Assembly (NCBI GenBank): GCA_051362555.1
Contig: CM120643.1
Span: 11,692,644 to 11,756,643, forward strand
Direction: 5' to 3'
DNA length: 64,000 nt
Source of the DNA: Lingula anatina
Taxonomy: Eukaryota > Animalia > Brachiopoda
The notes beneath the pieces were generated by a model that saw only the letters and a list, made by a program, of their open reading frames with translations, had not been told where the DNA came from and ran no database searches. This document shows, one piece after another, positions 1-17,905 of this stretch (its first letter is position 1; the number at the start of each line of letters is the position of its first letter). A program made the position numbers and the translations under genes.

Positions 1-149
1 GCGTTGTGAAATATAGAACACACTTTTGTTCTTTTTATGTTCTTTCACTGAGTATTGTGTGAAAACGATCTAGTAGAATAATATATATTGCTGACTGCGT
101 ACTGCCGTTTTAAAGAAGTGCATTTTATGTACTGAGTAGCATACCAACC

Positions 150-419
150 ATTTCGAGCAATAGTGTACCTGTAATGGATCTATCGGTATTTGGATCTAAA
201 AATACGTGAATCTATAGGTGTGCGGATTTGAAGGACGTGGGTTTATGAGGACGTCATATCTATAGGAACGCAAATATATAGGACAGCAGAAAAAAAATCG
301 GATCTATCGGTATTTAAATCTAAAAAGACGTTTTTTCCGTTTTTCCTTTATGTATCTATCGGTAACGGGAGTATAGGGACGTGTAATATTTTGGGACTAA
401 ATTTTATCCGTACGTACCC
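150..419. repeat. Probable end of a non-autonomous DNA element with short subterminal repeats
   Basis: Recurring GATCTATCGGTA and ~15-bp-spaced GGACGT/TATAGG motifs, ending in TCCGTACGTACCC. The other end is not visible. Confidence 0.35.
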
Positions 420-598
420 AATTTAGCAACTGCTGCCAGCAACTTGATTTAAATCAGGGTCTAATCAAACAGCTAGGTCATTTAATGTACCTTAAGTTTC
501 AAGGCACTGTTAAGCTAGATTGCTCACTATAGGCCTATATATACCTTTTCATGTGTTGGCTTTATTACAGTGTATTGCTGATGTGGGTTATAAATATA

Positions 599-1634
599 GG
601 GTAGACCGGGGCTAAACGCCCCCCTTAAGCAAGAAACATCACAATTTTACCTGCTGAAGGTATAGACCGTTCAAAGTGGGTGTTAACTATGAAGGGCTGA
701 CTAGACTACAAACTGATACTAACACTTTTGGAAACAAACAAAAGAAAAACCTTATAGGTAAAAAATAGGTAAATTATAAAATCGGCCTTTTTGCCCCATG
801 GCTGGGGCATTACGCCTCGCACCACGGGGCTAAACGCCCACCGTGGGCGTCTTGCCCCAAACTATAGGCGTTATGCCCCGCCTTTGTACAAAGCAAAATA
901 AAGTCAAATTATATTTCTACGAGACAACTTAGTAAGCCTTTAAAAGCAACAAATTATATTTTGGGGTACTGAGATAATAAAAATACCCATCAAATTTATT
1001 CAGAATGAGCTGTAATTCTACTCTTTACGACAGGGCACTGTGATACTTCCAAAATTAAGTTCCTAGTACAGCCACTTGCTTTGGCTTTTCCCCATATAAG
1101 TGTTATAACTGATGATATACAATAAAAAAACATGCATGAAAGAACACTTCCGCATCTTTTTAGAATTATTTTTTATTTAAAAACGAAAGGGGGCAAAACG
1201 CCCAGTGATCGGGGCAAAACGCCCACCATAGGCATTTTGCCCCATATCAGCATGGGCGTTTTGCCCCAAAGTGAGATTTTGTATATTTTTTCAAAATTCG
1301 TCGGGAAAAGTTTTATACAATCTGACTTCATCGAAACTTGTATGGAGGTCTGATACCATCCTATCTGTCACCAACAAAGTTTTTGGAATTCGTGCATTTG
1401 GTAGGTGGTGTCACTGATGTTAAGGAAAAGGCTAAATAACAGTAAACAAGGCAAAAATGAACAAATTATCATAAAATGCTTATTTTTTAGTTTGTGATCA
1501 TCTCCGTCATGGAGGATAAGTCTGCTGGAAATCGGAAGTGGACAAAACATCACGAGACGCGTATTTATACGTAATACCTGAAAAAAAGCGGGTGGGCGTT
1601 TGACCCCGACTGGGCGTTTAGCCCCGGTCTACCC
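599..1634. mobile_element. Non-autonomous Tc1/mariner (pogo-like) MITE
   Basis: Perfect 23-bp TIRs GGGTAGACCGGGGCTAAACGCCC (599-621) and its reverse complement (1612-1634), flanked by TA on both sides. Many internal GGGGC(A/T)AAACGCCC subrepeats; no transposase ORF. Confidence 0.85.
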
Positions 1635-1850
1635 TATATAAAATCAAGCTGGCAATACCGAAATCTAGAACCTAGGGTAATTTAATGTGACATCTCACTG
1701 AAACTGACAGCCTATCTGTTTGGAAAAAATGATTACTGCCATGGACTTAATTGCAATCAGCCCACTCATGTGATTGAAATTGACAGCCGGACTTGGGTTT
1801 TCGTTTCTAACACGAGGTGAAATATCTACTACAACTTTTGATGAAGACTA

Positions 1851-1992
1851 GCCTCGGCTTCGATGCTGCATCTGTTGCGCGCTGGGAACTTCAACCAATC
1901 CGATTGTGACTTTCACTTCGTGTAGCGCTGGATCCCCTTATTTGCATAACGCATTGTATAAATATAAAACACTCCTATCCTCCAACATTCAA
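1851..1992 (+). promoter_or_regulatory. Histone H2B promoter (copy 1), now directly upstream of a LINE ORF
   Basis: CCAAT 1895-1899, GATCC 1931-1935, octamer ATTTGCAT 1940-1947, TATAAATA 1957-1964, cap-like CATTC 1986-1990. Colinear with the intact H2B promoter at 14644-14785. Confidence 0.9.
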
Positions 1993-4900
1993 AAACAGAC
2001 TCAAACACACTAACACGCATCAAACCCCTACCCAAAGATGGCGGCACACCTGATGCATATCAACATAAACAGTCTTAAAACCAAGAAACAACTCTTAGTT
2101 GAATATCTGGTAGAGCATAAACCTGACATCGTATGCATAAACGAGACAAAGTTGAGTGAGAAGACAAAAATATCTGTGAGCGGCTATCAGGTGTTGCGCA
2201 GGGACAGAGATGCGCATGGAGGCGGAGTGGCTATACTCGTTAAGAAAGATGTAAAGTTCCAAGCTATCAATACCAGCAACCTTAATGCTGAAATACTGGG
2301 GATAGAAACTACGATAAATCAAATAAAAACGGCTATAGTTTCACTGTATAACCCACCTCATACAACCCCTGACAAAGCAGTATTTAAGCACTTTACTGAT
2401 CAATATCAAAATTGTCTATTTATAGGCGATTTTAACAGTAAGCACGCTTTCTTTGGTTGCAAGAAAACGAACAATAACGGAAACGTTCTCTTTGACATAA
2501 CTGAGGAACTAGATCTGATAAATCTTAATGATAATGGCGAAACTACGCACATGGCCACTAATGGCAATACTGATACGCTGGACATGGCTTTTGTCACGAC
2601 TCAACTTTACTCGAAAATAGCGGACTGTTATGTAGGTGAAGACGTCGGTAGCGACCATCTACCCCTACACGTAAAAATCATTCAGAATAACCGAATAGCA
2701 AGAGCACCAACTGTCTTACGGCGGAATACAAGAAAAATAAACCAACCACTGTTTGACCATCTAATTTCTGAAAATCTAAATGGCGACGCAGTCACACCTA
2801 CCACCACTGGAATAGACGAAGCTTGTGAGAATGTGACCGAGACACTAGTAAATGCACTTGAAACCGCATGCCCAAAAACAAAGGTACGAGAAAATGTATG
2901 GAGAGTAAGCGAGGACACCCTTAAGCTTATAAAACTGAAAAGAAAACTAAGACGCCTGGCTCAAAAGAAAGAAGGCCCTTTCTATAAAATCATGTACAAC
3001 TATATGACAAAACGGGTCAAAGAAGCCATCAAAAAAGAAAAACAAAAAGCTTGGGAAACCGCTACCTCTATGCTAAATGAAAGAAAAATGGACAAGACCT
3101 TCTGGGACATGTTTAAAAGGCTAACTAGCACTGGCAAAGCTAAAGAAACATCTGAAAAGCCTGTACTCAAAGAAAATGGGCAACTTACAACAAACGATGC
3201 GGAGAAAGCAAATGCATTTGCAAATACCCTTGGCAAGATACATAACACCCACGAGGGGGTCATATTCGACGACGGTTTTAAAGCGGTGGTGGAAAACTAC
3301 GTCGGTAAAAACAAACACAAATTCGATCCCTTATCTAACCCGACATTAGAAGAAGGGGACGATCACAAAATTCTAGATAAAATCACAATAGATGAACTTA
3401 ACGGAAATCTGAAAAATACAAAAAACACGTCACCAGGTGACGACACAATAACAAACGGGATAATTAAAAAAGCGCCTGTATGTCTGAAAAACAAACTATG
3501 CGACATTTATAACAACTGTCTGCAGTTGGGATATTTCCCCACAATATGGAAAAAAGCGACTGGTATAATGATACCCAAACCTGAGAAAGATCACAAAGTA
3601 ACAACGAATTATAGACCGATCAGCCTGCTAAGCTGCCTAGGCAAACTATTCGAGAGAATAATCGCCACTAGAATAAAAGAAAAACTAGAAAATGACCAAT
3701 TTTTCAATAAATGGCAAAGAGCGTACATGAGCAAGAAAGAAGGAATGGAACATGTGTTAAGACTAGCTGAAAGTGCACAACTGGCAATAAACAAAGGCTG
3801 GGTTACGGGCGCTATGATGCTGGACGTGGAGAAGGCTTTTGACTCAGTTTGGCACGCTGGGTTAAGGTACAAACTAGCAAATAGTAACCTGCCAGTTAAG
3901 ATTGTCCGCTTGCTGTCATCTTTTTTGAAAGACAGAAAGATCAAGGTCAGAATCAAAGGCGAGGAATCCGAATATGTTAGTCTCAATGCTGGCACGCCTC
4001 AGGGGTCTGTAATCAGCCCGTTGCTATTTCTAATATATGTGAACGACCTACCAATAAACCCAAGATACAACACCGAGGTCTCTCAATTTGCAGACGATTT
4101 AGGCATGTGGACATCATGCAAAAATGTAAAAAGCATAGAAATCAGACTGACGGGCGTGATAAAGGATCTCGAATTATGGTGCTCTCTATGGCGGATAAAA
4201 CTAAACACCAAGAAAACACAATTAATCATCTTTTCAAAATCAAATGAACAACCCAAGCTTAACCTCACATTATTTGGCGACCGATTAGAAACATGTGAGG
4301 AAGTCACACTGCTGGGAATCACATTCGACAGAAAACTAGGTTTCAAAAAACACGTAGACAACACAGTGAAAAGAGCTAGGAAAAGAACTGGCCTTCTCAT
4401 AAGACTCAGAGGAACAAACTGGGGGGCATCGAGTGCCTGCCTCCTCAAACTATATAAATCCTTCATTCGGCCCGTACTTGAGTACGGGGCAGTTATACTA
4501 GCTGGCATCAACAAGACAAGGCTCAAAGATCTGCAAAAAATCCAGAATAGAGCGCTACGAATAGCGCTCAAATTACCAACAAAAACTTCGATCGTAACGC
4601 TGCACAAGCTGGCCAACATTGAATATATATCAAGCAGACTATTTTTTCTGGGCACAAAAACAATTAGCAGGTTCGAAAATAGCCATCTATTCAAAGAACT
4701 TAAGCTAAAAAACATAATATTAAGCAAACCAGGCAAAAATACTACCCTTGACTTATATAAATAATGGTACAAATTGTGCATATGAAACGGTCTAACGGTA
4801 GCGACCCCGGTCTCCCGATGACCGGAGGAAGAAAGGAAAAATACAACCCTGAAAAGGGCAACCTCAGTCCACAAAATAAGGATAAACACATCTGGGCTCC

Positions 4901-5060
4901 CGATGACCAGAGACAAGGAAATGGAATGAGAAAACACAATAATACTATAAAGGCGGAGGAAAAAAGGTATATAATATATGTATATTATATATAAAAATAT
5001 TTATATTAACAAACATCTGGAAAAAATTAACAAGCTGGAAGGAAACTGGAAAGAGACGGT

Positions 5061-5103
<43 letters not shown>

Positions 5104-5257
5104 CCAAGCGAGGCCAAAACCACGTACAGACAAACAATAGAGGTAGAAGACAATAAACACGTTTTGGGGATTGAAAGAAGCTCTTGTATTTTAATGCACG
5201 AGACTTCGTAACTTTCCCGTGTCGGCTTCGCCGACACATACCTATACATCACACACA
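1993..5257 (+). mobile_element. Non-LTR retrotransposon (APE+RT, Jockey/I-group-like) inserted at the H2B cap site
   Basis: 13-bp TSD CTCCAACATTCAA at 1980-1992 and 5258-5270. Removing the insert restores the H2B leader seen at 14773-14816. Intact ORF, A-rich 3' UTR, terminal hairpin and ACACACA tail. Confidence 0.93.
2038..4764 (+). CDS. LINE ORF2-type protein: AP endonuclease + reverse transcriptase (908 aa, intact)
   Basis: APE motifs (NINSL, INETKL, GGGVAIL, YNPP, GDFN, TLD, SDHLP). RT motifs (SPGDD, YRPISLLS, LDVEKAFD, GTPQGSVISPLLF, QFADD, LLGITFD) and thumb region YKSFIRPVLEYG. No RNase H or C-terminal zinc knuckle seen. Confidence 0.96.
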   Translation: MAAHLMHININSLKTKKQLLVEYLVEHKPDIVCINETKLSEKTKISVSGYQVLRRDRDAHGGGVAILVKKDVKFQAINTSNLNAEILGIETTINQIKTAIVSLYNPPHTTPDKAVFKHFTDQYQNCLFIGDFNSKHAFFGCKKTNNNGNVLFDITEELDLINLNDNGETTHMATNGNTDTLDMAFVTTQLYSKIADCYVGEDVGSDHLPLHVKIIQNNRIARAPTVLRRNTRKINQPLFDHLISENLNGDAVTPTTTGIDEACENVTETLVNALETACPKTKVRENVWRVSEDTLKLIKLKRKLRRLAQKKEGPFYKIMYNYMTKRVKEAIKKEKQKAWETATSMLNERKMDKTFWDMFKRLTSTGKAKETSEKPVLKENGQLTTNDAEKANAFANTLGKIHNTHEGVIFDDGFKAVVENYVGKNKHKFDPLSNPTLEEGDDHKILDKITIDELNGNLKNTKNTSPGDDTITNGIIKKAPVCLKNKLCDIYNNCLQLGYFPTIWKKATGIMIPKPEKDHKVTTNYRPISLLSCLGKLFERIIATRIKEKLENDQFFNKWQRAYMSKKEGMEHVLRLAESAQLAINKGWVTGAMMLDVEKAFDSVWHAGLRYKLANSNLPVKIVRLLSSFLKDRKIKVRIKGEESEYVSLNAGTPQGSVISPLLFLIYVNDLPINPRYNTEVSQFADDLGMWTSCKNVKSIEIRLTGVIKDLELWCSLWRIKLNTKKTQLIIFSKSNEQPKLNLTLFGDRLETCEEVTLLGITFDRKLGFKKHVDNTVKRARKRTGLLIRLRGTNWGASSACLLKLYKSFIRPVLEYGAVILAGINKTRLKDLQKIQNRALRIALKLPTKTSIVTLHKLANIEYISSRLFFLGTKTISRFENSHLFKELKLKNIILSKPGKNTTLDLYK

Positions 5258-5301
5258 CTCCAACATTCAACGTTCAATTTGTACGCTAGAATACAAGTAC
5301 C

Positions 5302-5670
5302 ATGCCTCCCAAAGTGAGTTCCAAGGGCGCCAAGAAAGCCGGTAAGGCTAAGGCAGCACGTAGTGGTGACAAGAAGAGAAGGAGGAAGAGAAAGGAAAGC
5401 TACAGCATCTACATCTACAAGGTGATGAAACAGGTGCACCCTGACACCGGTATCTCCAGCAAAGCCATGAGCATCATGAACAGCTTTGTCAACGACATCT
5501 TTGAACGTATTGCCGGTGAAGCTTCCCGCCTTGCCCACTACAACAAGCGTTCTACCATCACCAGCCGAGAGGTCCAGACTGCTGTCCGTCTCTTGCTGCC
5601 TGGTGAGCTTGCCAAGCACGCTGTCAGTGAGGGCACAAAGGCCGTCACCAAGTACACCAGCTCTAAGTAA
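5302..5670 (+). CDS. H2B: Histone H2B (copy 1)
   Basis: Canonical H2B fold ([26 protein letters not shown]...AVTKYTSSK); intronless. Confidence 0.99.
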
Positions 5671-5698
5671 ATCAACAAGTCATTGATTTGCACAAAAC

Positions 5699-5738
5699 GG
5701 TCCTTTTCAGGACCAACCATATATTTTCAGAAAAGCTA
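5699..5738 (+). terminator. Histone 3' stem-loop and HDE (H2B copy 1)
   Basis: GGTCCTTTTCAGGACC at 5699-5714, then CAGAAAAGCTA about 14 nt downstream. Confidence 0.95.
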
Positions 5739-6395
5739 TGCCAAATGTTTGCAATCTGATCATATAATTAAGAATCTCAATTAAGTTTTGAATGGGTTTG
5801 TTGTATAATAATTACCACGGCATGAATAAATAAACTGACCTGCAGACAATGTCTACCTAACAGTTAACTAGTTGGTAATGAATGAGTCAATACATAATAA
5901 AATCACGTACGGTTAACCGTTATGCCATATAGATGAATACATCTCAAAGAGGTGTAGTGAGAGTAAAAGAATGGCACCGAATGACTTACCACTACCTGTT
6001 TCTATCATGCCAAAAGTATTCTACATAGCGATAAACCAGCAGAAAATTTCACATATCAGGGCAGGTGTTAACTTTTCACATATTCCATCTCCTTCCATGA
6101 ATTTCATCTTTCCCCAGTCAAAAGGGCACAGAAAATAAACAGAAAATATATGTACTAACTTGTCAAGTCACAAAATTTCTTGGCCTACACACACGTAGTT
6201 GACCGTCCCTCAAAATACATCCATTTTGTCCAACACTGGCACATCAAACTCAAAGTTTTTTTTTTTTTTTTTTCGTTTTTCCAATTCACACCTTAAAATT
6301 GATGAACCCAATCAAACAAAAGTACCTGCACATGTGTGAATATAACATTTTAATATGTCAGGATGACTATGCCAATTTAAATCAATCCTAATAAT

Positions 6396-6670
6396 TTTTC
6401 CTCTGCCAAGAAGGTTATTTCCACCGTCTTTGTTTGTCCGTCTGTCTGTCATCAACATAACTAAAAAAATTATATGGATGAATTTCGATGGAAGTTTCAG
6501 GAGAGGTCAGAAGTGGGCCAAGGAACAGCTAGGTGATTAGTTTTTGGCGGTGATCCAGATCAATAATGAATCAATAAACAATAATCAAAAAACTAATTAA
6601 ATCATTATAGAATGAAAAGTTTGGGGTGTTGCCTTGGCGGAGGCCTGCGCTCTCGGAGTGCTTTTCTAGT
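6396..6670 (+). mobile_element. Short Helentron-associated (HINE/DINE-like) element
   Basis: 5' CCTCTGCCAAG with its inverted partner CCTTGGCGGAGG near the 3' end, a GTCT/GTTT microsatellite, and a 3' hairpin followed by TTTTCTAG. A second copy lies at 56984-57219. Confidence 0.65.
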
Positions 6671-7216
6671 CTTGGATATTTTTTAACAGTTCAAAATAAA
6701 TTTCACAATAGTTGTCAGGATTGATATGATTGTTTTCCAATCAACAGCTAATATTGAGATAGAAGATCTCCTGATAGACATCAAAATATTGGAGATAAAA
6801 CCTATTTCCATATAAGCTGTTGAATGAAGAAAAAAAAATCACATCATTCTTTTAACTTAACACAGCTGATGAAATTCTTCTCCGAGTTGGCAGGATTGTA
6901 TTTTATCTGCCTTGAGAGCAATAAATGTTGCACTTTTAAGGGCTGGGGGATATTTTCAAATCGTTTTCAGTGGCTGATTTATTTATGACACCGCATCATC
7001 CAATGATAAAGGCAAAAGCCACTTCAGAAGGACCCTATAGCTGTTGGGGTGAGGGGATATGCTTGTCTTAATTGCAGTTCAAGTTCAAAAATGAACATGA
7101 TTTAGATTATTTTTCGCCTTTACTTCATTCCTTGTTTTTGATATTAATATAATATTACATTTATTGTATATGTATATATATTAGAATAAAAGCGGTGTGA
7201 TAAAAACATAATGGTT

Positions 7217-7255
7217 TAGCTTTTCTTGATTATGGAGGTGGTCCTGAAAAGGACC
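7217..7255 (-). terminator. Orphaned histone 3' stem-loop and HDE belonging to H3
   Basis: Reverse complement of GGTCCTTTTCAGGACC at 7240-7255 and of CAAGAAAAGCTA at ~7217-7228. It becomes adjacent to the H3 stop once 7280-9894 is removed. Confidence 0.92.
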
Positions 7256-7279
7256 GTTTTAATGATGTAAAATTAGAAT

Positions 7280-9894
7280 GGGGAATACCCGCTTTAAGGG
7301 TCTGCCGCTAGATGGCGTGGGGGTGAAAGCAGTCCTTCTTAAATCTCGCAGAATCTCGCTCACGGCTTAACACCAGAGTTTAACATGGAGCGTGTGCACG
7401 CGTCGCTGACAGTGAACCAACTCAAACGCAATTTACTTGAATGTGGTGCCATAACATCTGGATGAAAATGTGAATTGACTGAAAGGTATGTGTTTTCTTT
7501 TCATTTAGTGCTTGAAAAACACGAATGCTAACTATTTTCCTTGAAAAAAATCGAACATTAGTCGAGGTGTGTGTGTCAAATCTGACATGTTATGTACATG
7601 TAGACTACTGTAGGTACGAGTAGGCCTACGCTCATATTTTGTTTTAGTAGCACGAAAGACGAAGATTTTTTATACTTAGTAAATGAACTTATTTATTTTC
7701 TTTATAATGTTACCCAAAGAAGGCCCATATATTGGGGGCAAAGCCTGAAACTGTCGATTTCAGGACCCAGGACAGCCAACTTCAAGAGCAGGATAAAATG
7801 ATTACTTCAGGAATCTTACCCGTCACTTCACATCAGCGGCAAAGATTGATGTAGCCACCAGTTATGCCTACCCTAAAGCTGACTTACAGGCGACTGTGAT
7901 GGACAACAACTATTGCCAAGTGCCATGAAAACAATAATGCATGGATAGAGGGAATGATGTAAGTGAAAACAGAGGACTAATATTAAGAATCAGGCCCAAA
8001 TATGAGAAAGAATTATCAATCTAGGTGATGTGTGACATCATAGAAATATAATATTGTATGTTAACTATTTAATGCTGTAACCATCTACCATGCTTTAATG
8101 GGATATGAATATTTCAGGTTGAGGAACAAACAGCGAAGGACACTGAGCATAGCAAGTTATAACAAGGAAAGAGCGCAATCTGACACAAGGAGAGACAATG
8201 GCAGATCACTGCTTCCAGGTTTGGAGAGATAATTGCAGCTACAGAGAAGAAGTATATAAACAAACTGTATGAATCATTGTTGTGTCCAAAACCATTGCAG
8301 ACACATGACAGTTGGACCCGGACCCGATTTCCCCTTTTTTGAATGTGTATCTCGTGCACGAATCTGGGCCTAAGGAAAACCCGCGAATACTATACTAAGT
8401 TAGAAGGCCAGATGTTCATTACAAATCGCCCATTCTGCTATTTTGTTGTGTTTACATTCTGTTTGATCTGTTTGTGGGGTTGATTCACTCTGACGCTGGA
8501 TATTTTTCTACATGTATTTTGCCCAGGATAACTTTTTTTAATGAAAAACACTATAGGAAGCATGAGTCAAGTAGTTTATAGAAAGAACCCCTGTATGAGA
8601 TGGTTTTAGCTGCAATCATAATTTTGAAGTGCAATTTTAAAAAATGTTTTAACTAAAATGAAATAATTTGGTGGTGATATATTCTTTACAAAAAGTACTT
8701 ACTAGTATGTGTTTATGCTGTTTTTAATAATATTTAACTGTAATGAAAAAAAAACCTATGATGCTATTTTGTAAAGTATTTTTAGTGGGATGAAATAAAT
8801 TGCTAGTTGTATTTACAGCAAATAATTTGGTTTTTCTGCTTTTTAAAGAATTTTCAAAGTGATGACATAATGTGGTGGTTCTATTCAAGTAAAATAATCC
8901 ATAAGTACTATTTTGTAAAAAGGAACAAAAAACTGTGTTAATTTGTAAAATGTTTGCTTTCTTTAATTTTTATTTCTTAAACTGTTACAAAAAGTTTTCC
9001 ATACCTACAGTAATCCATTGGCTGAGAAATTGCAGCTATATATTCAGGAAAGTTATAGCACATGGTTTCATGGTTTTTACTATGGACTGAATAATTATTT
9101 TGTTTAAATAAAATATTTGGTTTTGCTGCTTTTTAATGAATTTTCAGAACGATGAAATAATGTGGTGTTTCTACTCAAGTAAAACAATTCAGAAGTTCTA
9201 TTTTGTAAAAAAAGAACAAAAACTGTTCATTTATAAAATGTTTTCTTTCTTTAAATTTAATTTCTTAAACTGTTACAAAAAGATGTCCAGACATGCATTA
9301 TTCCATTGGATGAGAAATTGCATCTATACATGAACAAATATATTATCTAACTATACCTAGTTTTTATTTGATTTTAAATAAAAATAATTATTTAATTAAC
9401 ATTACCGGTCATGCTCAATACATCAATAAAAAAGGATATTACTTAATAACACAACCTTATGCGGGTAGTAGGCTACCGGTACTTATATATATTTATTGAC
9501 AACTCTTCTGAAATTACGGACATAAGAAAACGTACTTTGATAAATCATACTTTATAAGTTTTGCCAAGATCAATTAACCTTTTTACGTGTATTCTTTTTG
9601 AGGGAACTCGTCTATCTTTAGGGGCCTAACTACTGTGCCTGGGTCAAGTCGTAACTGTCCCTTTAACATGGAAGGTGTGTTGACATGGGCAACCCTTCAC
9701 TTCAAACGAAGCCCTGAATCCTCAAGAAAGTTATGCCCACCTTTCCGACTTTGACATTCAGGTAAACAACAATACTGAGGCATGTTTATTAAGGCCAGTA
9801 CCACAGTCCAACGTATACAATATCCAACATGGCGACTGTGGAAGGACTGAATTCACACTAGCGACACCTGGCGCCAAGCGGGCTGGTATTCCTC
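7280..9894. mobile_element. Decayed ISL2EU-like (PIF/Harbinger-related) DNA transposon
   Basis: Short TIRs GGGGAATACC / GGTATTCCTC and AT TSD (7278-7279, 9895-9896). Plus-strand relics: SAP-like exon LTVNQLKRNLLECGAITSG*KCELTER (7385-7485) and YqaJ-like YYTKLEGQMFITNRPFCYFVVFT (8385-8456). Minus-strand relic: THAP-like MPQYCCLPECQSRKGGHNFLEDSGLRLK* from 9783. Confidence 0.8.
8820..9335. repeat. Diverged ~290-bp tandem duplication inside the transposon
   Basis: 8821-9045 aligns with 9111-9335 (TTTGGTTTT.CTGCTTTTTAA.GAATTTTCA...TCCATTGG.TGAGAAATTGCA). Confidence 0.75.
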
Positions 9895-9895
9895 A

Positions 9896-11217
<1,322 letters not shown>

Positions 11218-11242
11218 ACGTATTGATTATTTTGTTCAAAAC

Positions 11243-11280
11243 GGTCCTTTTCAGGACCACCAAACATTCAAGAAAAGCTA
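11243..11280 (+). terminator. Histone 3' stem-loop and HDE (H4)
   Basis: GGTCCTTTTCAGGACC at 11243-11258; CAAGAAAAGCTA at 11269-11280. Confidence 0.95.
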
Positions 11281-12121
11281 TGCTAATATATTGTTCTCAG
11301 CTTTTGATCAATCGCACCCTACTCTTGCGTTCAAAGAGTTTATTACCGAATATTTTATCATCCAACAGTTATTCACCGTAGTTGATACTAAGATTAACTG
11401 AACTGTTGTTACTGTGTAAAACTTCAACACTTTCTGTATGGCCGTCATAAGACAAAGACAAAACTCACCGCAAGCCTTAAGATACCCCAACATTTTATGT
11501 AGCACCACGAACCATACCTTGTACAATAAAATTTTACCAAATCCAGCTTATTTTAGAAAGGGATCTACATTCAAACGTTTCAGCAAACTCGACATCTGAA
11601 TCTGAATCTACGTCTAGTTGGTGTTTTATGCTGTTAAATACTCCTCAATACGGATAGCAATTGTCTGTAATGAAAGAAGTACTGAGTGCTTTTTAACATT
11701 CCATTAGTCATATGTGATATCTACTTACTATGTTAACTATACAAACAAAAGTAACTGGTCAGTCATTTTGCTACTAAAGTATTGAATAAAGAATGAAAAT
11801 TAACATTAGAGTTACTTGTAGAAGATAGCTTTTCACCCAAGGAAAATTTGTACGGCAGGTAAATCGCCATCATTGATACCCTTTAAACAGTGCATCATGG
11901 TGGGAGTGAAATTGTTCAATTTATGAGCTATTACCAAGTATGAGGCAAACATTGCTAAAAACACATGCAAATGAAAAAAGAAATTAAATAAATAAATAAA
12001 TAAACAAATAATAATAATGTCAAATAAGTAAACATTTTTTTCTACAACTTTTGAAAATTATTTGACCATGCTGATATTCCATGGGCACCTGTGTTTTTAC
12101 CAAACATACTGCCACTCAGAT

Positions 12122-12122
12122 G

Positions 12123-12176
<54 letters not shown>
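12122..12176. repeat. (ATT)n microsatellite
   Basis: Direct reading. Confidence 0.95.
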
Positions 12177-13555
12177 TAATTGATGGTGATAAGGTGAACA
12201 ACAGATTTGATTGATGAAATAGATGGACACATTATTCAGAATTCAGCATGTGTAAAAATAAAATGGCCGTTTCTCTTTATATATGGAAATTTTAAGTCAT
12301 CAAAAACATAACCTTTTTTCCCATTATAACACCATTAGTTATTCTGTTATATTCAGTGTTTTATGTATTTTAGGGGGTGAACAGTGTCATTTGGTACTGT
12401 TTAGAACTATAATTCAGCTAGTCAAAATTCTAATTTCAAGAAGGGACCATTGGTGTGATTTTTTTTCAGAAATCAAAAGGGGGGAGGGGGGAGGTCAGGA
12501 TCCCCCCCCCCCCCCCCCTCCTAAACCAGCCACTGAATTGCTATGGTAAAGCTAGCTTTGTGCGATTCTTTGAATCATAAACCTATCACAGTGACTGACA
12601 ATGGTGGTGATTTTTTTTTTATATAAGACTCTCCTTAGATAGTTCTCCGAGTGGCAATTTTGTTCTACTGACACCAAATGTAAAGGTAGGTCCACCACAA
12701 TAAGATGTCTCGATACTCATCAAATCCCTTTCAGTGGTAATAACTAGATAAATAAAAGTAAGGTGAATGACACATATATTTGATGTCACGTACACAGACA
12801 GTATCTAAAATGCACTGTCTGTAAACATGTCTGTGCATGGTAATTTTAAGCTATTTTTCCATTATTTCTCCATTAGTTAAATTTTCTTTACCAGTTAACT
12901 CAATTGCTATGGTAAAGTTTATTTTAAGATACTTCGATATAATAACCTATACAAGTGACAGACAGCATACTGAAATTTGTTCTACATATAACTTTCAGTA
13001 TTATAGTGACCATAGCAGCTAAATATAAATACTCTCATAAGAGGAAACAGCATTGATTGACAGTGGATTTATCAATCGTCCAATTCTTTGACTGTGTTAA
13101 ATGTTCAGTATTTTATTTATATTAAAAGTACACAGACACAAAAAATAATTAATAAAATTTTAAAATATTTAACAAACAGAAATTTAGCATGACAAGTGTT
13201 TTCATATTTATTTACTTACCACCTCAGAAAATAAGTGCATACATACACTATATTCAATCTAAAACATATGTATTGAAAAGTGACAAGATAATCAAAAACT
13301 GAGCAAGACTGACACTGAAATGCTTTCAATAAAAAATCTAACAAGACCATGTGCATTTAAGCCATGGTAAGGATTAGATTAAAATCTTTATAAAATCTAC
13401 CAGGCCAGACCAGGGTTTGGGAATATATATATATATATATATCATAATAAAGCGCTATAAATATAGAAAGCTTATCTTGATATCTACTAGTCTTGCTATA
13501 TGATGTTATCCATACTATTTATCATTTTTTTTACTTATGTATTCATTATGGTACA

Positions 13556-13591
13556 GCTTTCCTTGGAACTTGTGTGGCCCTGAAAAGGGCC
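13556..13591 (-). terminator. Histone 3' stem-loop and HDE (H2A)
   Basis: Reverse complement of GGCCCTTTTCAGGGCC at 13576-13591; CCAAGGAAAGCT follows on the minus strand. Confidence 0.95.
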
Positions 13592-13621
13592 GTTTTGCGG
13601 TGTAAACTAGCAAACGCTAAT

Positions 13622-13999
13622 TTACTTGGCAGCTGCCTTGCTCTTCTTGGGCAGAAGGACAGCCTGGATGTTTGGCAGAACACCACCCTGGGCAATGGTG
13701 ACACCTCCCAGGAGCTTGTTCAACTCCTCATCGTTGCGGACAGCCAACTGCAAGTGACGGGGGACAATTCTGGATTTCTTGTTGTCACGGGCAGCATTTC
13801 CCGCCAACTCGAGGACCTCAGCGGCCAGATACTCGAGGACGGCAGCCAGGTACACTGGGGCACCGGCTCCAACGCGCTGGGCGTAGTTACCCTTGCGGAG
13901 CAGACGGTGAATTCTGCCCACTGGGAACTGAAGTCCAGCACGGGATGATCTGCTCTTCCCCTTTGCTCTTGCCTTGCCTCCCTTACCACGTCCAGACAT
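13622..13999 (-). CDS. H2A: Histone H2A
   Basis: MSGRGKGG...[11 protein letters not shown]...LLPKK. The true ATG is at 13999; the ORF track starts 9 nt early. Confidence 0.99.
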
Positions 14000-14816
14000 T
14001 TTGTACAAATTTCTTCGTTACGATTATCGTACTAAGAATGGCCAATAATGTGTTTAAAATTGGTATTTATAGCCATCGGTGGGGATTCAGTGCTGCACGC
14101 AAATCTGTCCAATAAAACAGCGTAGTCGGAATAACTGCCAATAGGTAAAGAGAGCGCTTAACTTGCCCTCGTTCTCACTGTGCAGCATTCGAGCCTCTAA
14201 TTTGCATAAATCTATTAGATTATTTGGTACCAGCATGAAGTTTACAGGGGCCGTGAAATAACCATAGGTACATATGGTTTTGCATGATACAAAACAAGTG
14301 TTTCACACATCCTCCTTCCAATAACGTAATTCTTATTAGTATTGTTAAAGATATAATGAGCACGGTTTGAGGGGTGAATACCTCATAAAGACTTGAATGG
14401 TATTGCTCTTATTAAGTTAACAAGGTGACAGACTTGATTGAAATCGTAGGACACCTTAATTGCTGCCAGCTACTTGATTGCAATCAGATCATTACTTTGA
14501 CAGCTCATTGAAGATAACGTCTTGTTGACACATGAACTGCTGTCAAGTACTTGAAAGTACCAGCATAATATACGCAAGTTGTTTTCGTTAATGATGAGTC
14601 CATGTTGGACCGTAAGTGCTTTCATGAAGTGATATGCTACTTTGCCTCGGCTTCGACGCTGCATCTGTTGCGCGCTGGGCAAATTCAACCAATCGGATTG
14701 TGAAGTTTACAGGTGTAGCGCTGGATCCCCTTATTTGCATACTGAATTGCATAAATACAAAACGCTCCCTTCCTCCAGCATTCAACGTTCAATTTGTACG
14801 CTAGAATACAAGTATC
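14000..14816. promoter_or_regulatory. Divergent H2A/H2B promoter
   Basis: TATAAATA on the minus strand at ~14063-14070; octamers at 14200-14207 and 14733-14740; CCAAT ~14689; CATAAATA ~14750; cap-like CATTC ~14779. Confidence 0.8.
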
Positions 14817-15185
14817 ATGCCTCCCAAAGTGAGCTCCAAGGGCGCCAAGAAAGCCGGTAAGGCTAAGGCAGCACGTAGTGGTGACAAGAAGAGAAGGAGG
14901 AAGAGAAAGGAAAGCTACAGCATCTACATCTACAAAGTGATGAAACAGGTGCACCCTGACACCGGTATTTCCAGCAAAGCCATGAGCATCATGAACAGCT
15001 TTGTCAATGACATCTTTGAACGTATTGCCGGTGAAGCTTCCCGCCTTGCCCACTACAACAAGCGTTCCACCATCACCAGCCGAGAGGTCCAGACTGCTGT
15101 CCGTCTCTTGCTGCCTGGTGAGCTTGCCAAGCACGCTGTCAGTGAGGGCACAAAGGCCGTCACCAAGTACACCAGCTCTAAGTAA
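14817..15185 (+). CDS. H2B: Histone H2B (copy 2, uninterrupted)
   Basis: Protein identical to copy 1; only synonymous differences seen. Confidence 0.99.
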
Positions 15186-15212
15186 ATCAACGAATCACTG
15201 ATTTACACAAAC

Positions 15213-15252
15213 GGTCCTTTTCAGGACCAACCATATCTTTCCAGAAAAGCTA
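15213..15252 (+). terminator. Histone 3' stem-loop and HDE (H2B copy 2)
   Basis: GGTCCTTTTCAGGACC at 15213-15228, then CAGAAAAGCTA. Confidence 0.95.
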
Positions 15253-15462
15253 TGCCAATTGTTACTCAAAATGTAGCCCACATATAAAAATTTATCACAC
15301 ATATGATACACTTTGACATGACTGGGTTACTTGACTCTTGAATTTGTAAATTGTCTTCAGTGTATTTGATGATTTCATAGTAATGATTAATTTAGATGAC
15401 TTTTTTCTTGGTTTAAATTATAGGTATACATAATTGTTTCAATGTCAACAGTATGGCAAATT

Positions 15463-15676
15463 GGGGCACATTCCCATAGATTTTAGGTCGATCTATCCCA
15501 GTAGGGAGTCTCACTAGATTACTGTCAGATATTAGGCTTAAATGTCCGTCCCGCCTACTACAAGCTGTAAGGGGGTAATTAACTTTCGTGTTCGCTCGGC
15601 TGACAGCTATTTAGCGTGAACCCCCAGGGAGTTGGGTCAATCTAGTTGGATCAATCTAATCTCTGGGAATGGGAGC
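15463..15676. mobile_element. ~210-bp MITE
   Basis: CATTCCCA.AGATT ... AATCTCTGGGAATG inverted ends; near-identical copy at ~20815-21025. Confidence 0.7.
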
Positions 15677-16149
15677 TTAGTGTCACAGAGGGCTTTTTAA
15701 ATATAATACCTATGCAGGATTAAGGGGTTGTATCCTCCTTTTAGAAGCATTTATGATTTTTTGTTTAGGGTTACTTCCAAAACCCAAAATATGAATAATA
15801 CTACCCCGCCTCCATTTCTTTAAAAGGAGGCACACAGTTTTTAAAAAGCTTGTATCCAGCTGCCATTTCTCTTACTTGTTGAACAGTTTGCTGGGCATTT
15901 CATTTTATTTTATTTTTAACCCTAAAATGGTAAAAATCGATTTTGGATTTATGTGTCTTCTATACTATACACATATGGTGGTTGGATGAAAATTATCTGT
16001 GTATGTATAGTTCTTATTCTTTTTTACTACACTATTGCATAAATTGACCATGCTCCAATTTTAAGTAAGTTGACAGGAGACCTCTTGTATCTAGTCTGGG
16101 TAGAAAAATTACTGACATCTTGAATTTGAGGAAATAGAGGTAACTAAAA

Positions 16150-16950
16150 AAAATTGATCATCCATGCACATAAACTAGCACATCTGAAACCAACAAGCAA
16201 TGCAAGTGCATACAAACTAGTGATGCAGTGGGTTTTACTGTGCATTGTAAAGCTTGGTGCACAAATGAGTTCAGCACCTGTGTTGGATTTCACCGGCACA
16301 TTTGGAAAGAAGATAGCCAAGATATGTAGTTACTCAGTTCTCAGTTCAAACACTAGAATTCATCAACGTACTGTAAAATAACAAGGAATAACCAACCACT
16401 CAGCCTGCTGAGCTGTCTAGGCAAACTAATCACCACTAGATTAAAAGAAAAGCTAGAAACTTCAATAAATAGCAAATTGTGTCAACAATTAAAGACCAAT
16501 CAACCCTGTAGATGGCTACGGCAAGCTCTTCTTAAAAATTACTGCCAACAGATTAGTAGACTAACTTTAAATACATATTCTTTACAGGTCAACATAGTTG
16601 ACCTGAAAAGGCACGGCAAGAATACCCAAAACTGCTTTAGAAGCACTCAACAAAAATGGCTAAGCATCAGCCAACCAATACTCAAATTAAAAGAAAGCAT
16701 ACTTTAATAATTAAAATTCTACTCTTATCATACAGCATGAAGAATCATGCAAGATTGCGCATGTGCACTGGAAGCATCATATGTTGTATACTGTGGATTA
16801 ACATGAATGATTACTGGATTAGTCAAAAGAAGACAAACCCCAAGTCAAAGATGACAACTCAATTTTAATACAGGAATGCTGCAGAGTCCACCACCAGCTT
16901 TTTCCATATATAATTATAGCTTGCCTATTTACCGAAATACCAATCTTGGA
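16150..16950 (+). pseudogene. Old degraded relic of a LINE related to the element at 1993-5257
   Basis: 16400-16475 (CAGCCTGCTGAGCTGTCTAGGCAAACTA...CCACTAGATTAAAAGAAAAGCTAGAAA) matches 3620-3717 of the intact ORF with deletions. Weaker matches flank it, so the limits are approximate. Confidence 0.7.
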
Positions 16951-17905
16951 ACATAACATTACTATGGCTGGTATAGACTTCTGGGAGAAATGAGAAGAAT
17001 GTGGAAAATAAATATATTACATTTTCAGTGACCTCTGTGTCAGTTTAGATGTGGTAAAGAGGCAAGGAGTTAGTGACAAATGTGACAGACAAAATGGTGG
17101 AAAATAATTTATTACTTAAAAGGGAGAGAACAAGATTTCTGTAAAAATTTTGAAAGTTCTTTGTATCTTTGTTAAAAACAAGTCCATGCAAAAAATGTAA
17201 TGCTAATTCACAGGGTAAAACTAGTTTTAAATGAGTCCGAAGGTTTTCCTCTAGGAGTTCAAGTAAACATTCAAGTATGTTCTTTGATTATGGATAAATG
17301 CAATAATCAAATATAAAATCTCAAGTTGGACCAATTTTGAATGAAGCACCAAATTTAAAAGCACGACCAAACATGAAACAAAAATTGAATTGTTCTTACA
17401 TCACAGTTGAAGCTTATTTAACCTTTGAGAAAACTATGCATCATAAGTTTAAATACTTAAACTATCAACTACATTTTTTTAAATTTTATAACATAACTAA
17501 AATCATCGCTATTATTATGTTTTTCACATTAGTCAAATATCTGCAAGTGCATGCAAACAAGTTTAATTTTTATTTTTCCTCTAAATATTCAGTATATTTA
17601 TCAACAGGCTTAAACCATCCTCCATGCACACCTGCCTTTTAAAAACAATCTGTAAATCACAAACTAAGTGACAGCTACATGGAACCAAACAAAAACTTCA
17701 CTAATCAGATCAAGGGCATTTGAAATAAAGTTATCCTCCATATCAATTTCTTTCTTCTTCAACTTATATGTCTCAGTTTAGTGTTCTCCTGAAGAATTTC
17801 TCCCGTTTTCTCCTGTTGCAGTTCATTCCACTTTGAGGCAAAAGTTGCATAGCTCTGTATTTTCAGAAAATTTCATCCATGAAGGTATGCTATGGTCATT
17901 TCTTT

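What the first reader, a model, noticed from the sequence alone, without database searches (positions are those of the whole stretch)
1851..5738. Intact retrotransposon sitting on the H2B cap site: a reverse transcriptase wired into histone regulation
Seen: the 13-bp TSD CTCCAACATTCAA (1980-1992 and 5258-5270) contains the cap-like CATTC. Comparison with the uninterrupted H2B at 14644-15228 shows the element split the gene between promoter and leader, in sense orientation. The full CCAAT-GATCC-octamer-TATA promoter is kept. The first AUG after the cap is the APE-RT start (2038, AAGATGG, ~50-nt leader). No ORF1 or internal promoter is visible, the 908-aa ORF is undamaged, and H2B with its stem-loop/HDE follows. 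Established: octamer-driven H2B promoters and stem-loop/U7 processing confine expression to S phase; R2 elements target rDNA and are co-transcribed from the host promoter; other LINEs target snRNA or tRNA repeats. Inference: this may be a histone-gene-targeting, promoter-borrowing LINE that uses a redundant multicopy gene as a safe site and gains S-phase or early-embryo expression. It could give an RT-H2B bicistronic RNA ending in a histone stem-loop. I cannot check whether such a family is already catalogued.
Basis: partly seen in the sequence, partly recalled or inferred. Interest (0 to 1): 0.92.

Follow-up and report, generated by a model that had tools for sequence, protein, structure and literature searches.

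The report
Retrotransposons aimed at histone start sites
A front-clipped copy of a jumping gene sits at the predicted start point of a histone gene, and a related family in another animal has landed twelve times at the matching spot of all four core histone genes, so these elements likely aim at histone gene starts, a target missing from the papers I could search.

Summary
In detail: a 3,265-nt APE-RT LINE with an intact 908-aa ORF and an exact 13-nt duplication splits an H2B gene at its predicted cap, in sense. The 'single-ORF, promoter-borrowing family' part fails. A contig identical over 849 nt and 9 RNA reads continue upstream into the element's own sequence, and 8 of 9 relatives carry a zinc-knuckle ORF1. 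This copy is 5'-truncated. The targeting part gains independent support. A related family (34% aa, same supported clade) occurs in a second animal's tandem histone arrays. There, 12 of 14 copies sit at the predicted caps of H4, H2B, H2A and H3, all in sense, mostly with 13-nt duplications. Those duplications share no consensus but begin 19-24 nt after TATA-like boxes, so targeting is likely positional. Against: 0 of 80 metagenomic relatives lie beside histone genes, and other copies in the window's own species have other flanks. Verdict: likely a site-preferring LINE lineage with a new target class, histone or general Pol II start sites (0.7); chance insertion 0.2. No cap-started or bicistronic RNA was shown.

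The parts
1851..1979 (+). H2B promoter copy (CCAAT 1895-1899, GATCC 1931-1935, octamer 1940-1947, TATA 1957-1964)
   Evidence: 86.7% to 14644-14785
1980..1992 (+). left target-site duplication, 13 nt, holds the predicted cap motif CATTC; starts 23 nt after the first T of TATA
1993..5257 (+). 5'-truncated copy of a two-ORF APE-RT LINE
   Evidence: X1 contig matches from 1992 with 704 other letters before it; 9 X12 RNA reads have the same loose end
1993..2078 (+). likely last codons of ORF1: the frame of 1992 is open to TAA 2076-2078 and overlaps the ORF2 start (inferred)
   Evidence: read by eye, the 30 loose letters are open in this frame and hold stops in the other two; relatives' ORF1 ends -47 to +11 of the ORF2 ATG
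2038..4764 (+). ORF2, 908 aa: APE endonuclease (7-210) + RT (512-763); no RNase H, no C-terminal CCHC
4765..5257 (+). 3' UTR with an internal A tract (5062-5101)
5166..5237 (+). predicted 3'-end RNA structure shared across the clade (helix, conserved internal loop, helix) plus a perfect 8-bp hairpin; likely RT recognition signal
   Evidence: z -5.65 for 5160-5257; 7 of 9 pairs with changes on both sides in 8 sequences
5243..5257 (+). short tail; other copies of the family end in (CAT)n
   Evidence: loose ends and joints
5258..5270 (+). right target-site duplication, 44-32 nt before the H2B ATG
5302..5670 (+). H2B ORF, 122 aa, same protein as 14817-15185, now cut off from its TATA box
5694..5739 (+). 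histone stem-loop (5699-5714) and downstream purine-rich element
   Evidence: Rfam RF00032, 35.5 bits
14644..15263 (+). uninterrupted H2B paralogue used as the empty-site comparator

Best explanation
The insert is a 5'-truncated copy of a two-ORF LINE retrotransposon, and its lineage likely steers new copies to RNA polymerase II start sites of histone genes by position rather than by sequence. Shown: truncation at 1992/1993; intact ORF2; a longer, transcribed source form; a 13-nt duplication across the predicted cap; and the same anatomy, repeated, for a related family in a second animal's histone arrays. Inferred: the endonuclease would nick the template strand about 19-24 nt after the TATA box and prime reverse transcription from the (CAT)n tail there. 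The second strand would be cut 13 nt further on, at or just past +1, which fixes the sense orientation. The duplicated stretch overlaps the region that melts in the Pol II open complex (recalled: about -9 to +2), so the likely cue is the promoter complex or the open DNA, not a DNA word. Copies would persist in histone genes because these are redundant; the same preference would be purged at single-copy genes. Whether the preference is for histone promoters or for any strong TATA/Inr promoter is open (about even). Read-through from the host promoter is a plausible bonus for full-length copies but is not shown. This copy lacks ORF1 and is probably not autonomous.
For: Truncation: X1 contig of 1,553 nt matches 1992-2840 with 0 differences from its letter 705; 9 X12 reads share that loose end, agreement 1.0; X12 shows sense-strand RNA along the element. 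8 of 9 relatives with sequence upstream of ORF2 have a CCHC ORF1 abutting it (about 6 distinct families). Targeting: 7 of 11 loci from the genome scan are tandem H4-H3-H2A-H2B arrays with relatives of ORF2. In 5 contigs with 107 histone gene starts, 12 of 14 copies lie at predicted caps: H4 5, H2B 5, H2A 1, H3 1. All 12 are sense to the gene, including the inverted H2A. Of the 9 with both ends, 6 have an exact 13-nt duplication, one 12, one 7, and one a rearranged 5' end. Copies differ (mostly 83-97%) and have different truncation points; a 99.5% identical pair sits at H4 and H2B. Only 4 of 38 CATTY motifs in the unit are used; 4 of 6 distinct sites at caps has p about 5e-7 under uniform insertion, with a window drawn after seeing the data. 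That family and the window's element fall in one clade: SH-like 0.986, 43 of 45 bootstraps. In the window's species, one 3' flank (4 reads) has CATTC 4 nt past the tail, and two X1 contigs join a 3' end to two different truncated starts through a shared spacer ending in TCAT, as repeated hits on one site would give (my reading).
Against: The second-animal family is only 34% identical over ORF2 and is not the nearest branch; it joined the core group directly in 2 of 45 bootstraps. 0 of 80 metagenomic loci have a histone gene. Of 10 relatives' 3' flanks (11-1,061 nt), none shows a histone gene and only 2 show an Inr-like motif within 14 nt. Relatives P0004 and P0006 stand for 559 and 322 sequences, with the listed members on contigs of many sizes, which looks dispersed. 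The window species' other 3' flanks (4 reads at 5238; 5 mixed reads at 5251) do not match the window's H2B leader. Only one copy of this family has a fully known site. The second animal is seen only through array contigs mis-binned into bacterial genomes, so its non-histone copies are invisible. 2 of its 14 copies are off the cap (one in the H2B promoter about 65 nt upstream, one antisense in the spacer). Two unrelated LINE-like inserts also sit at its H2B cap, which may mean a general hot spot. The window's cluster has other insertions too.
Confidence: 0.7

Rival explanations
1. Chance: a dispersed two-ORF LINE happened to land at the cap of a spare H2B copy in a decaying, transposon-ridden histone cluster; the second animal's family evolved its habit separately.
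For: The copy is 5'-truncated; other copies have other flanks; 0 of 80 metagenomic relatives are beside histones; relatives reach hundreds of sequences. The same cluster has a TIR element between H3 and its stem-loop and an RT remnant at 16282-16458. The scan covers very many windows, so rare coincidences get picked.
Against: It needs the same position, orientation, 13-nt duplication and (CAT)n tail to coincide with a related family's habit; a sense hit in a cap window is about 1.3% even within a histone unit.
Confidence: 0.2
2. Sequence-specific targeting: the endonuclease or the (CAT)n tail recognises the CATTY cap word, as Tx1- and R1-clade elements recognise their targets.
For: All five target duplications contain or end in a CATTY cap motif; the tail is made of the same letters.
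Against: The five duplications share no consensus at the first-nick end, the CATTY offset varies from 4 to 11 nt, and 34 other CATTY sites of the unit are unused.
Confidence: 0.06
3. One reading: a naturally single-ORF, promoterless LINE that depends on the H2B promoter and makes an RT-H2B RNA ending in the stem-loop.
For: ORF2's ATG is the first after the predicted cap, and the ORF is intact.
Against: At least 704 nt of own 5' sequence in an otherwise identical contig, and in RNA reads; ORF1 in relatives; H2B reads in X12 lack this copy's bases at two positions. Near identity to the longer form explains the intact ORF by youth.
Confidence: 0.04

Closest known systems
Target-specific non-LTR retrotransposons of multicopy genes (R1, R2, Keno, Mutsu, Dewa, Utopia, NeSL)
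   Same: Repeated insertion at a fixed place in a redundant gene family, variable 5' truncation, occasional tandem copies (PMC4640811, passages; PMC3706591, passages).
   Different: Listed targets are rRNA, snRNA, tRNA, spliced-leader exons, transposons, microsatellites and telomeres; 'histone' occurs 0 times in either paper. Here the target is a protein-coding gene, and one family hits four genes with unrelated sequence.
TRE5-A (Dictyostelium), Tf1 (S. pombe), Ty3 (S. cerevisiae): targeting through host transcription factors
   Same: Site chosen by position relative to a promoter (TRE5-A and Tf1: PMC3706591; Ty3 at Pol III starts: recalled).
   Different: TRE5-A and Ty3 go to Pol III genes; Tf1 and Ty3 are LTR elements; TRE5-A and Tf1 insert at a distance. 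Here an APE-RT LINE sits across the predicted Pol II start itself.
Drosophila I element and P element promoter preference
   Same: De novo insertions are enriched at Pol II promoters and depleted after selection for I (PMC10018349, passages), which fits survival only in redundant genes.
   Different: I element shows 1.74-fold enrichment about 150 nt upstream, not base-level placement; P is a DNA transposon.
I-group two-ORF LINEs (I, Nimb, Jockey, Outcast and kin; names recalled)
   Same: CCHC-knuckle ORF1 abutting APE-RT ORF2, short simple-repeat tail.
   Different: No RNase H and no C-terminal zinc finger (0 of 52 full-length relatives); branches apart from the Jockey-like and RNase H-bearing sequences of my set. 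No named reference was on hand, so the clade name is open.
Drosophila 297 in the H3 TATA box; sea urchin TU element in an H2B orphon (both recalled, not read; one search found no text)
   Same: Mobile element in a histone gene.
   Different: LTR and foldback elements, isolated cases, not a LINE recurring at four caps.

Membership tests
APE-type non-LTR retrotransposon (LINE) | APE endonuclease and RT in one ORF | tested here: met
APE-type non-LTR retrotransposon (LINE) | target-site duplication, simple 3' tail, 5' truncation | tested here: met
I-group two-ORF LINE | ORF1 with CCHC knuckles before ORF2 | tested here: inconclusive
   met in 8 of 9 relatives and in the second-animal family; for this family only 30 of at least 704 upstream letters were shown
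I / Nimb / Ingi clades | RNase H domain in ORF2 (recalled feature) | tested here: not met
   no RNase H hit, while L045 and L046 give one
Jockey clade | RT groups with Jockey-like sequences | tested here: not met
   four loci that I label Jockey-like from recalled motifs form their own group in 44 of 45 bootstraps; no named reference
Named Repbase clade or family | RT placement among Repbase/Dfam references | not testable with these tools
Single-ORF APE LINE (Vingi/RTE type) | family lacks ORF1 | tested here: not met
Target-specific non-LTR retrotransposon | independent copies at one position of a multicopy gene | tested here: inconclusive
   met for the second-animal relative, 12 of 14; one mapped copy for the window's family
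Target-specific non-LTR retrotransposon | conserved target sequence read by the endonuclease | tested here: not met
   no consensus among five duplications; 4 of 38 CATTY used
R2-like co-transcribed element | RNA starts at the host promoter; a 5' ribozyme frees the element | tested here: inconclusive
   no Rfam ribozyme in 1-17000; no start peak in X12, which may lack the allele

The most novel reading that the evidence does not exclude
A lineage of two-ORF LINEs in invertebrates integrates in sense across the Pol II start site of replication-dependent histone genes, guided by the pre-initiation or open complex. This makes histone arrays a third kind of multicopy haven beside rDNA and small-RNA genes, and puts each full-length copy under an S-phase promoter.
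Probability: 0.4. Interest if true: 0.88.

Novelty: new variant of a known kind. Interest (0 to 1): 0.74.

Why it matters
Known target-specific LINEs, in the lists I could read, use RNA genes, microsatellites or telomeres, and most read a DNA sequence. A LINE that finds four unrelated histone promoters at base-level precision would point to targeting through the Pol II machinery. That can be tested directly, and it would offer a route to place cargo behind a strong promoter in a redundant array. It would also add a force shaping histone-gene birth and death: 14 of 107 gene starts in the second animal's contigs carry a LINE-like insert.

Tried and rejected
No whole genome is held, so copies could not be tabulated. 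No RNA holder was listed. X1's kind is guessed by the tool. X15 gave no depth on the element or H2B. No empty-site joint was listed, and holes prove nothing. An X5 contig end 33 letters from position 2024 may mark a branch at 1992 (junction shared with another sample); not confirmed. Viral contigs gave nothing. The window protein is not in the cluster collection. Earlier findings: none. L009's 5' flank has CCAAT- and TATA-like words, but the junction spacing does not fit and I do not count it. The 3' motif recalls a hammerhead core, but it lacks the third helix, the window copy departs from the core, and Rfam finds nothing: rejected as a ribozyme. One search dropped 26 near-identical rows; one search used 81 chosen rows and gave only 0.887 for the larger clade. 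Ten literature searches listed no histone-targeting LINE; I read passages of 9 papers, and three key papers are not held. Repbase Reports and subscription journals were out of reach, so prior cataloguing is not excluded.
Full report
Observation. The 13-mer occurs only at 1980 and 5258, and the flanks match the uninterrupted H2B at 14644-15263 with an overlap of exactly that 13-mer. The insert 1993-5257 holds a 908-aa ORF with APE and RT domains and no RNase H. H2B and its stem-loop follow. The window holds a small cluster: this H2B, then H3, H4, H2A and a second H2B. The cap position is inferred from CATTC and the TATA distance (recalled consensus), not mapped.

The copy is truncated. Four of 21 listed runs were laid on 1500-5600. 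An X1 contig of 1,553 nt matches 1992-2840 with no difference, starting at its letter 705; the 704 letters before are not the H2B promoter. Nine RNA reads of X12 show the same loose end before 1992, and X12 has sense-strand reads along the element. Among relatives from metagenomes, 8 of 9 with sequence upstream of ORF2 have a CCHC-knuckle ORF1 ending within -47 to +11 nt of the ORF2 ATG. One frame of the window's 45-nt 'leader' stays open to 2078, and by eye through the 30 loose letters, as an ORF1 end would. So the family very likely has two ORFs, the break fell 45 nt before ORF2, and the intact ORF reflects youth: the listed X1 pieces differ from the window at 2 places, apart from one variant piece.

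Expression from the H2B promoter is not shown. X12 has no depth at 1774-1910 and no start peak at the cap. All 12 reads at 2024 and all 22 at 2121 carry another allele. Its H2B reads carry the second copy's base at 5319 (17 of 17), 5493 (26 of 26) and 5553 (14 of 16). The library may not carry this insertion, so this is weak evidence against, not a refutation.

Targeting, from a second animal. The scan of prokaryote genomes returned 11 loci. Seven are animal DNA mis-binned into three bacterial records: tandem 4.6-kb H4-H3-H2A-H2B units, H3 and H4 100% identical to the window's over the aligned parts. I fetched five whole contigs, which hold 107 histone gene starts. A 5.6-kb family with a CCHC ORF1, a 934-aa APE-RT ORF2 and an (ATC)n tail has 14 mappable copies. 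Twelve sit at predicted caps: H4 five, H2B five, H2A one, H3 one; all are sense to the gene, including H2A, which is inverted in the unit. Of nine with both ends, six have an exact 13-nt duplication, as in the window. One copy lies about 65 nt upstream in the H2B promoter, one lies antisense in the spacer, and none lies in a coding region. The copies are mostly 83-97% alike and break at different points, so they are not one event amplified; a 99.5% identical pair sits at H4 and at H2B.

Position, not word. Lined up on the duplication, the five promoters share no consensus at the first-nick end. The CATTY motif lies 4-11 nt inside, while a TATA-like box begins 19-24 nt upstream in each (boxes picked by eye, H3 duplication assumed 13 nt). 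The unit has 38 CATTY sites and only the four at caps are used. I infer a template-strand nick near the upstream edge of the Pol II open complex and a second cut near +1. This step is untested.

How close is the link? The second family is 34% identical to the window ORF2. On 861 columns of APE+RT from 29 chosen sequences it falls with the window's group, P0074, P0104 and P0109 (SH-like 0.986; 43 of 45 bootstraps), apart from RNase H-bearing and Jockey-like rows, but it is not the nearest branch. Both families have (CAT)n tails, and by eye a related 3' fold. In eight members of the window's group that fold shows changes on both sides at 7 of 9 pairs (the structure was drawn from these sequences). 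In the window's species, one 3' flank has CATTC 4 nt past the tail. Two X1 contigs join a 3' end to two different truncated starts (4469, 4598) through a shared spacer ending in TCAT. I read this as repeated use of one cap-like site, but I cannot show that either flank is a histone gene.

Against. None of 80 metagenomic loci has a histone gene, though most contigs end near the element. Of 10 relatives' 3' flanks, none shows a histone gene and 2 have an Inr-like word within 14 nt. P0004 and P0006 stand for 559 and 322 sequences. So the habit is not clade-wide in a strict form. The second animal's non-array copies cannot be seen. Two other LINE-like inserts (5,275 and 739 nt) also sit at its H2B cap, so that cap may attract several families.

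Literature. [quoted passage not shown] Passages of PMC3706591 set apart factor-guided targeting by TRE5-A and Tf1. Neither mentions histones. Passages of PMC10018349 show a weak promoter preference of the I element that selection removes. Passages of PMC6136364, PMC5371812, PMC6839031, PMC3442997, PMC11288735 and bioRxiv 10.1101/2025.02.07.636160 describe no histone-targeting LINE. Ten searches listed none. Repbase and three key papers were not available; no supplements were read.

Verdict. A real, young, 5'-truncated LINE copy, most likely placed by a start-site preference that it shares with a related histone-array family (0.7), against chance (0.2). It is a new variant of a known kind: target-preferring non-LTR retrotransposons, with a protein-coding target and a likely positional rule. 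Interest 0.74.

Noticed in passing
window 7277-9897: A 2.6-kb element with 13-nt terminal inverted repeats (one mismatch) and a broken SAP-like frame near 7386-7490 (motif recalled) sits at the H3 stop codon and separates H3 (9896-10306, minus) from its stem-loop at 7216-7260.
   Followed up: partly
window 16282-16458: Short remnant of a related RT (43% aa, 74% nt), about 1.1 kb downstream of the second H2B.
   Followed up: partly
window 594-1639: MITE-like element with 28-nt perfect terminal inverted repeats; a second very high-copy short repeat at about 1643-1680.
   Followed up: no
window 5166-5218; L001, L007, L010, L011, L013, L014, L017: Clade-wide 3'-end RNA motif: two helices with covariation around a conserved purine-rich internal loop that recalls a hammerhead core without its third helix.
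   Followed up: partly
window 5062-5101: A 40-nt A tract inside the 3' UTR, 156 nt before the element's end; it could prime oligo-dT libraries.
   Followed up: no
L082-L088, L092-L103 (G001:C2, G002:C2/C3/C5, G003:C3): Animal histone arrays are included in three bacterial genome records; contamination of those records.
   Followed up: yes
G002:C5 15426-20702 and G003:C3 15176-15916: A second, distant two-ORF LINE (28% aa; 8-nt duplication; its 5' end resembles the H2B leader) and a 739-nt insert also sit at the H2B cap.
   Followed up: partly
L082, L083, L086, L087, L101 ORF2 residues about 213-215: All 5 of 5 copies of the histone-array family read SFH where 96 of 120 relatives read SDH in the endonuclease's last catalytic motif; it may weaken or retune nicking.
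   Followed up: no
G002:C5 8507-10976 and 42160-44372: The H2A and H3 copies are internally deleted, non-autonomous derivatives 90% alike.
   Followed up: no
L013 2430-3491: A relative's 3' flank runs into what looks like the start of a spliced gene in sense.
   Followed up: no
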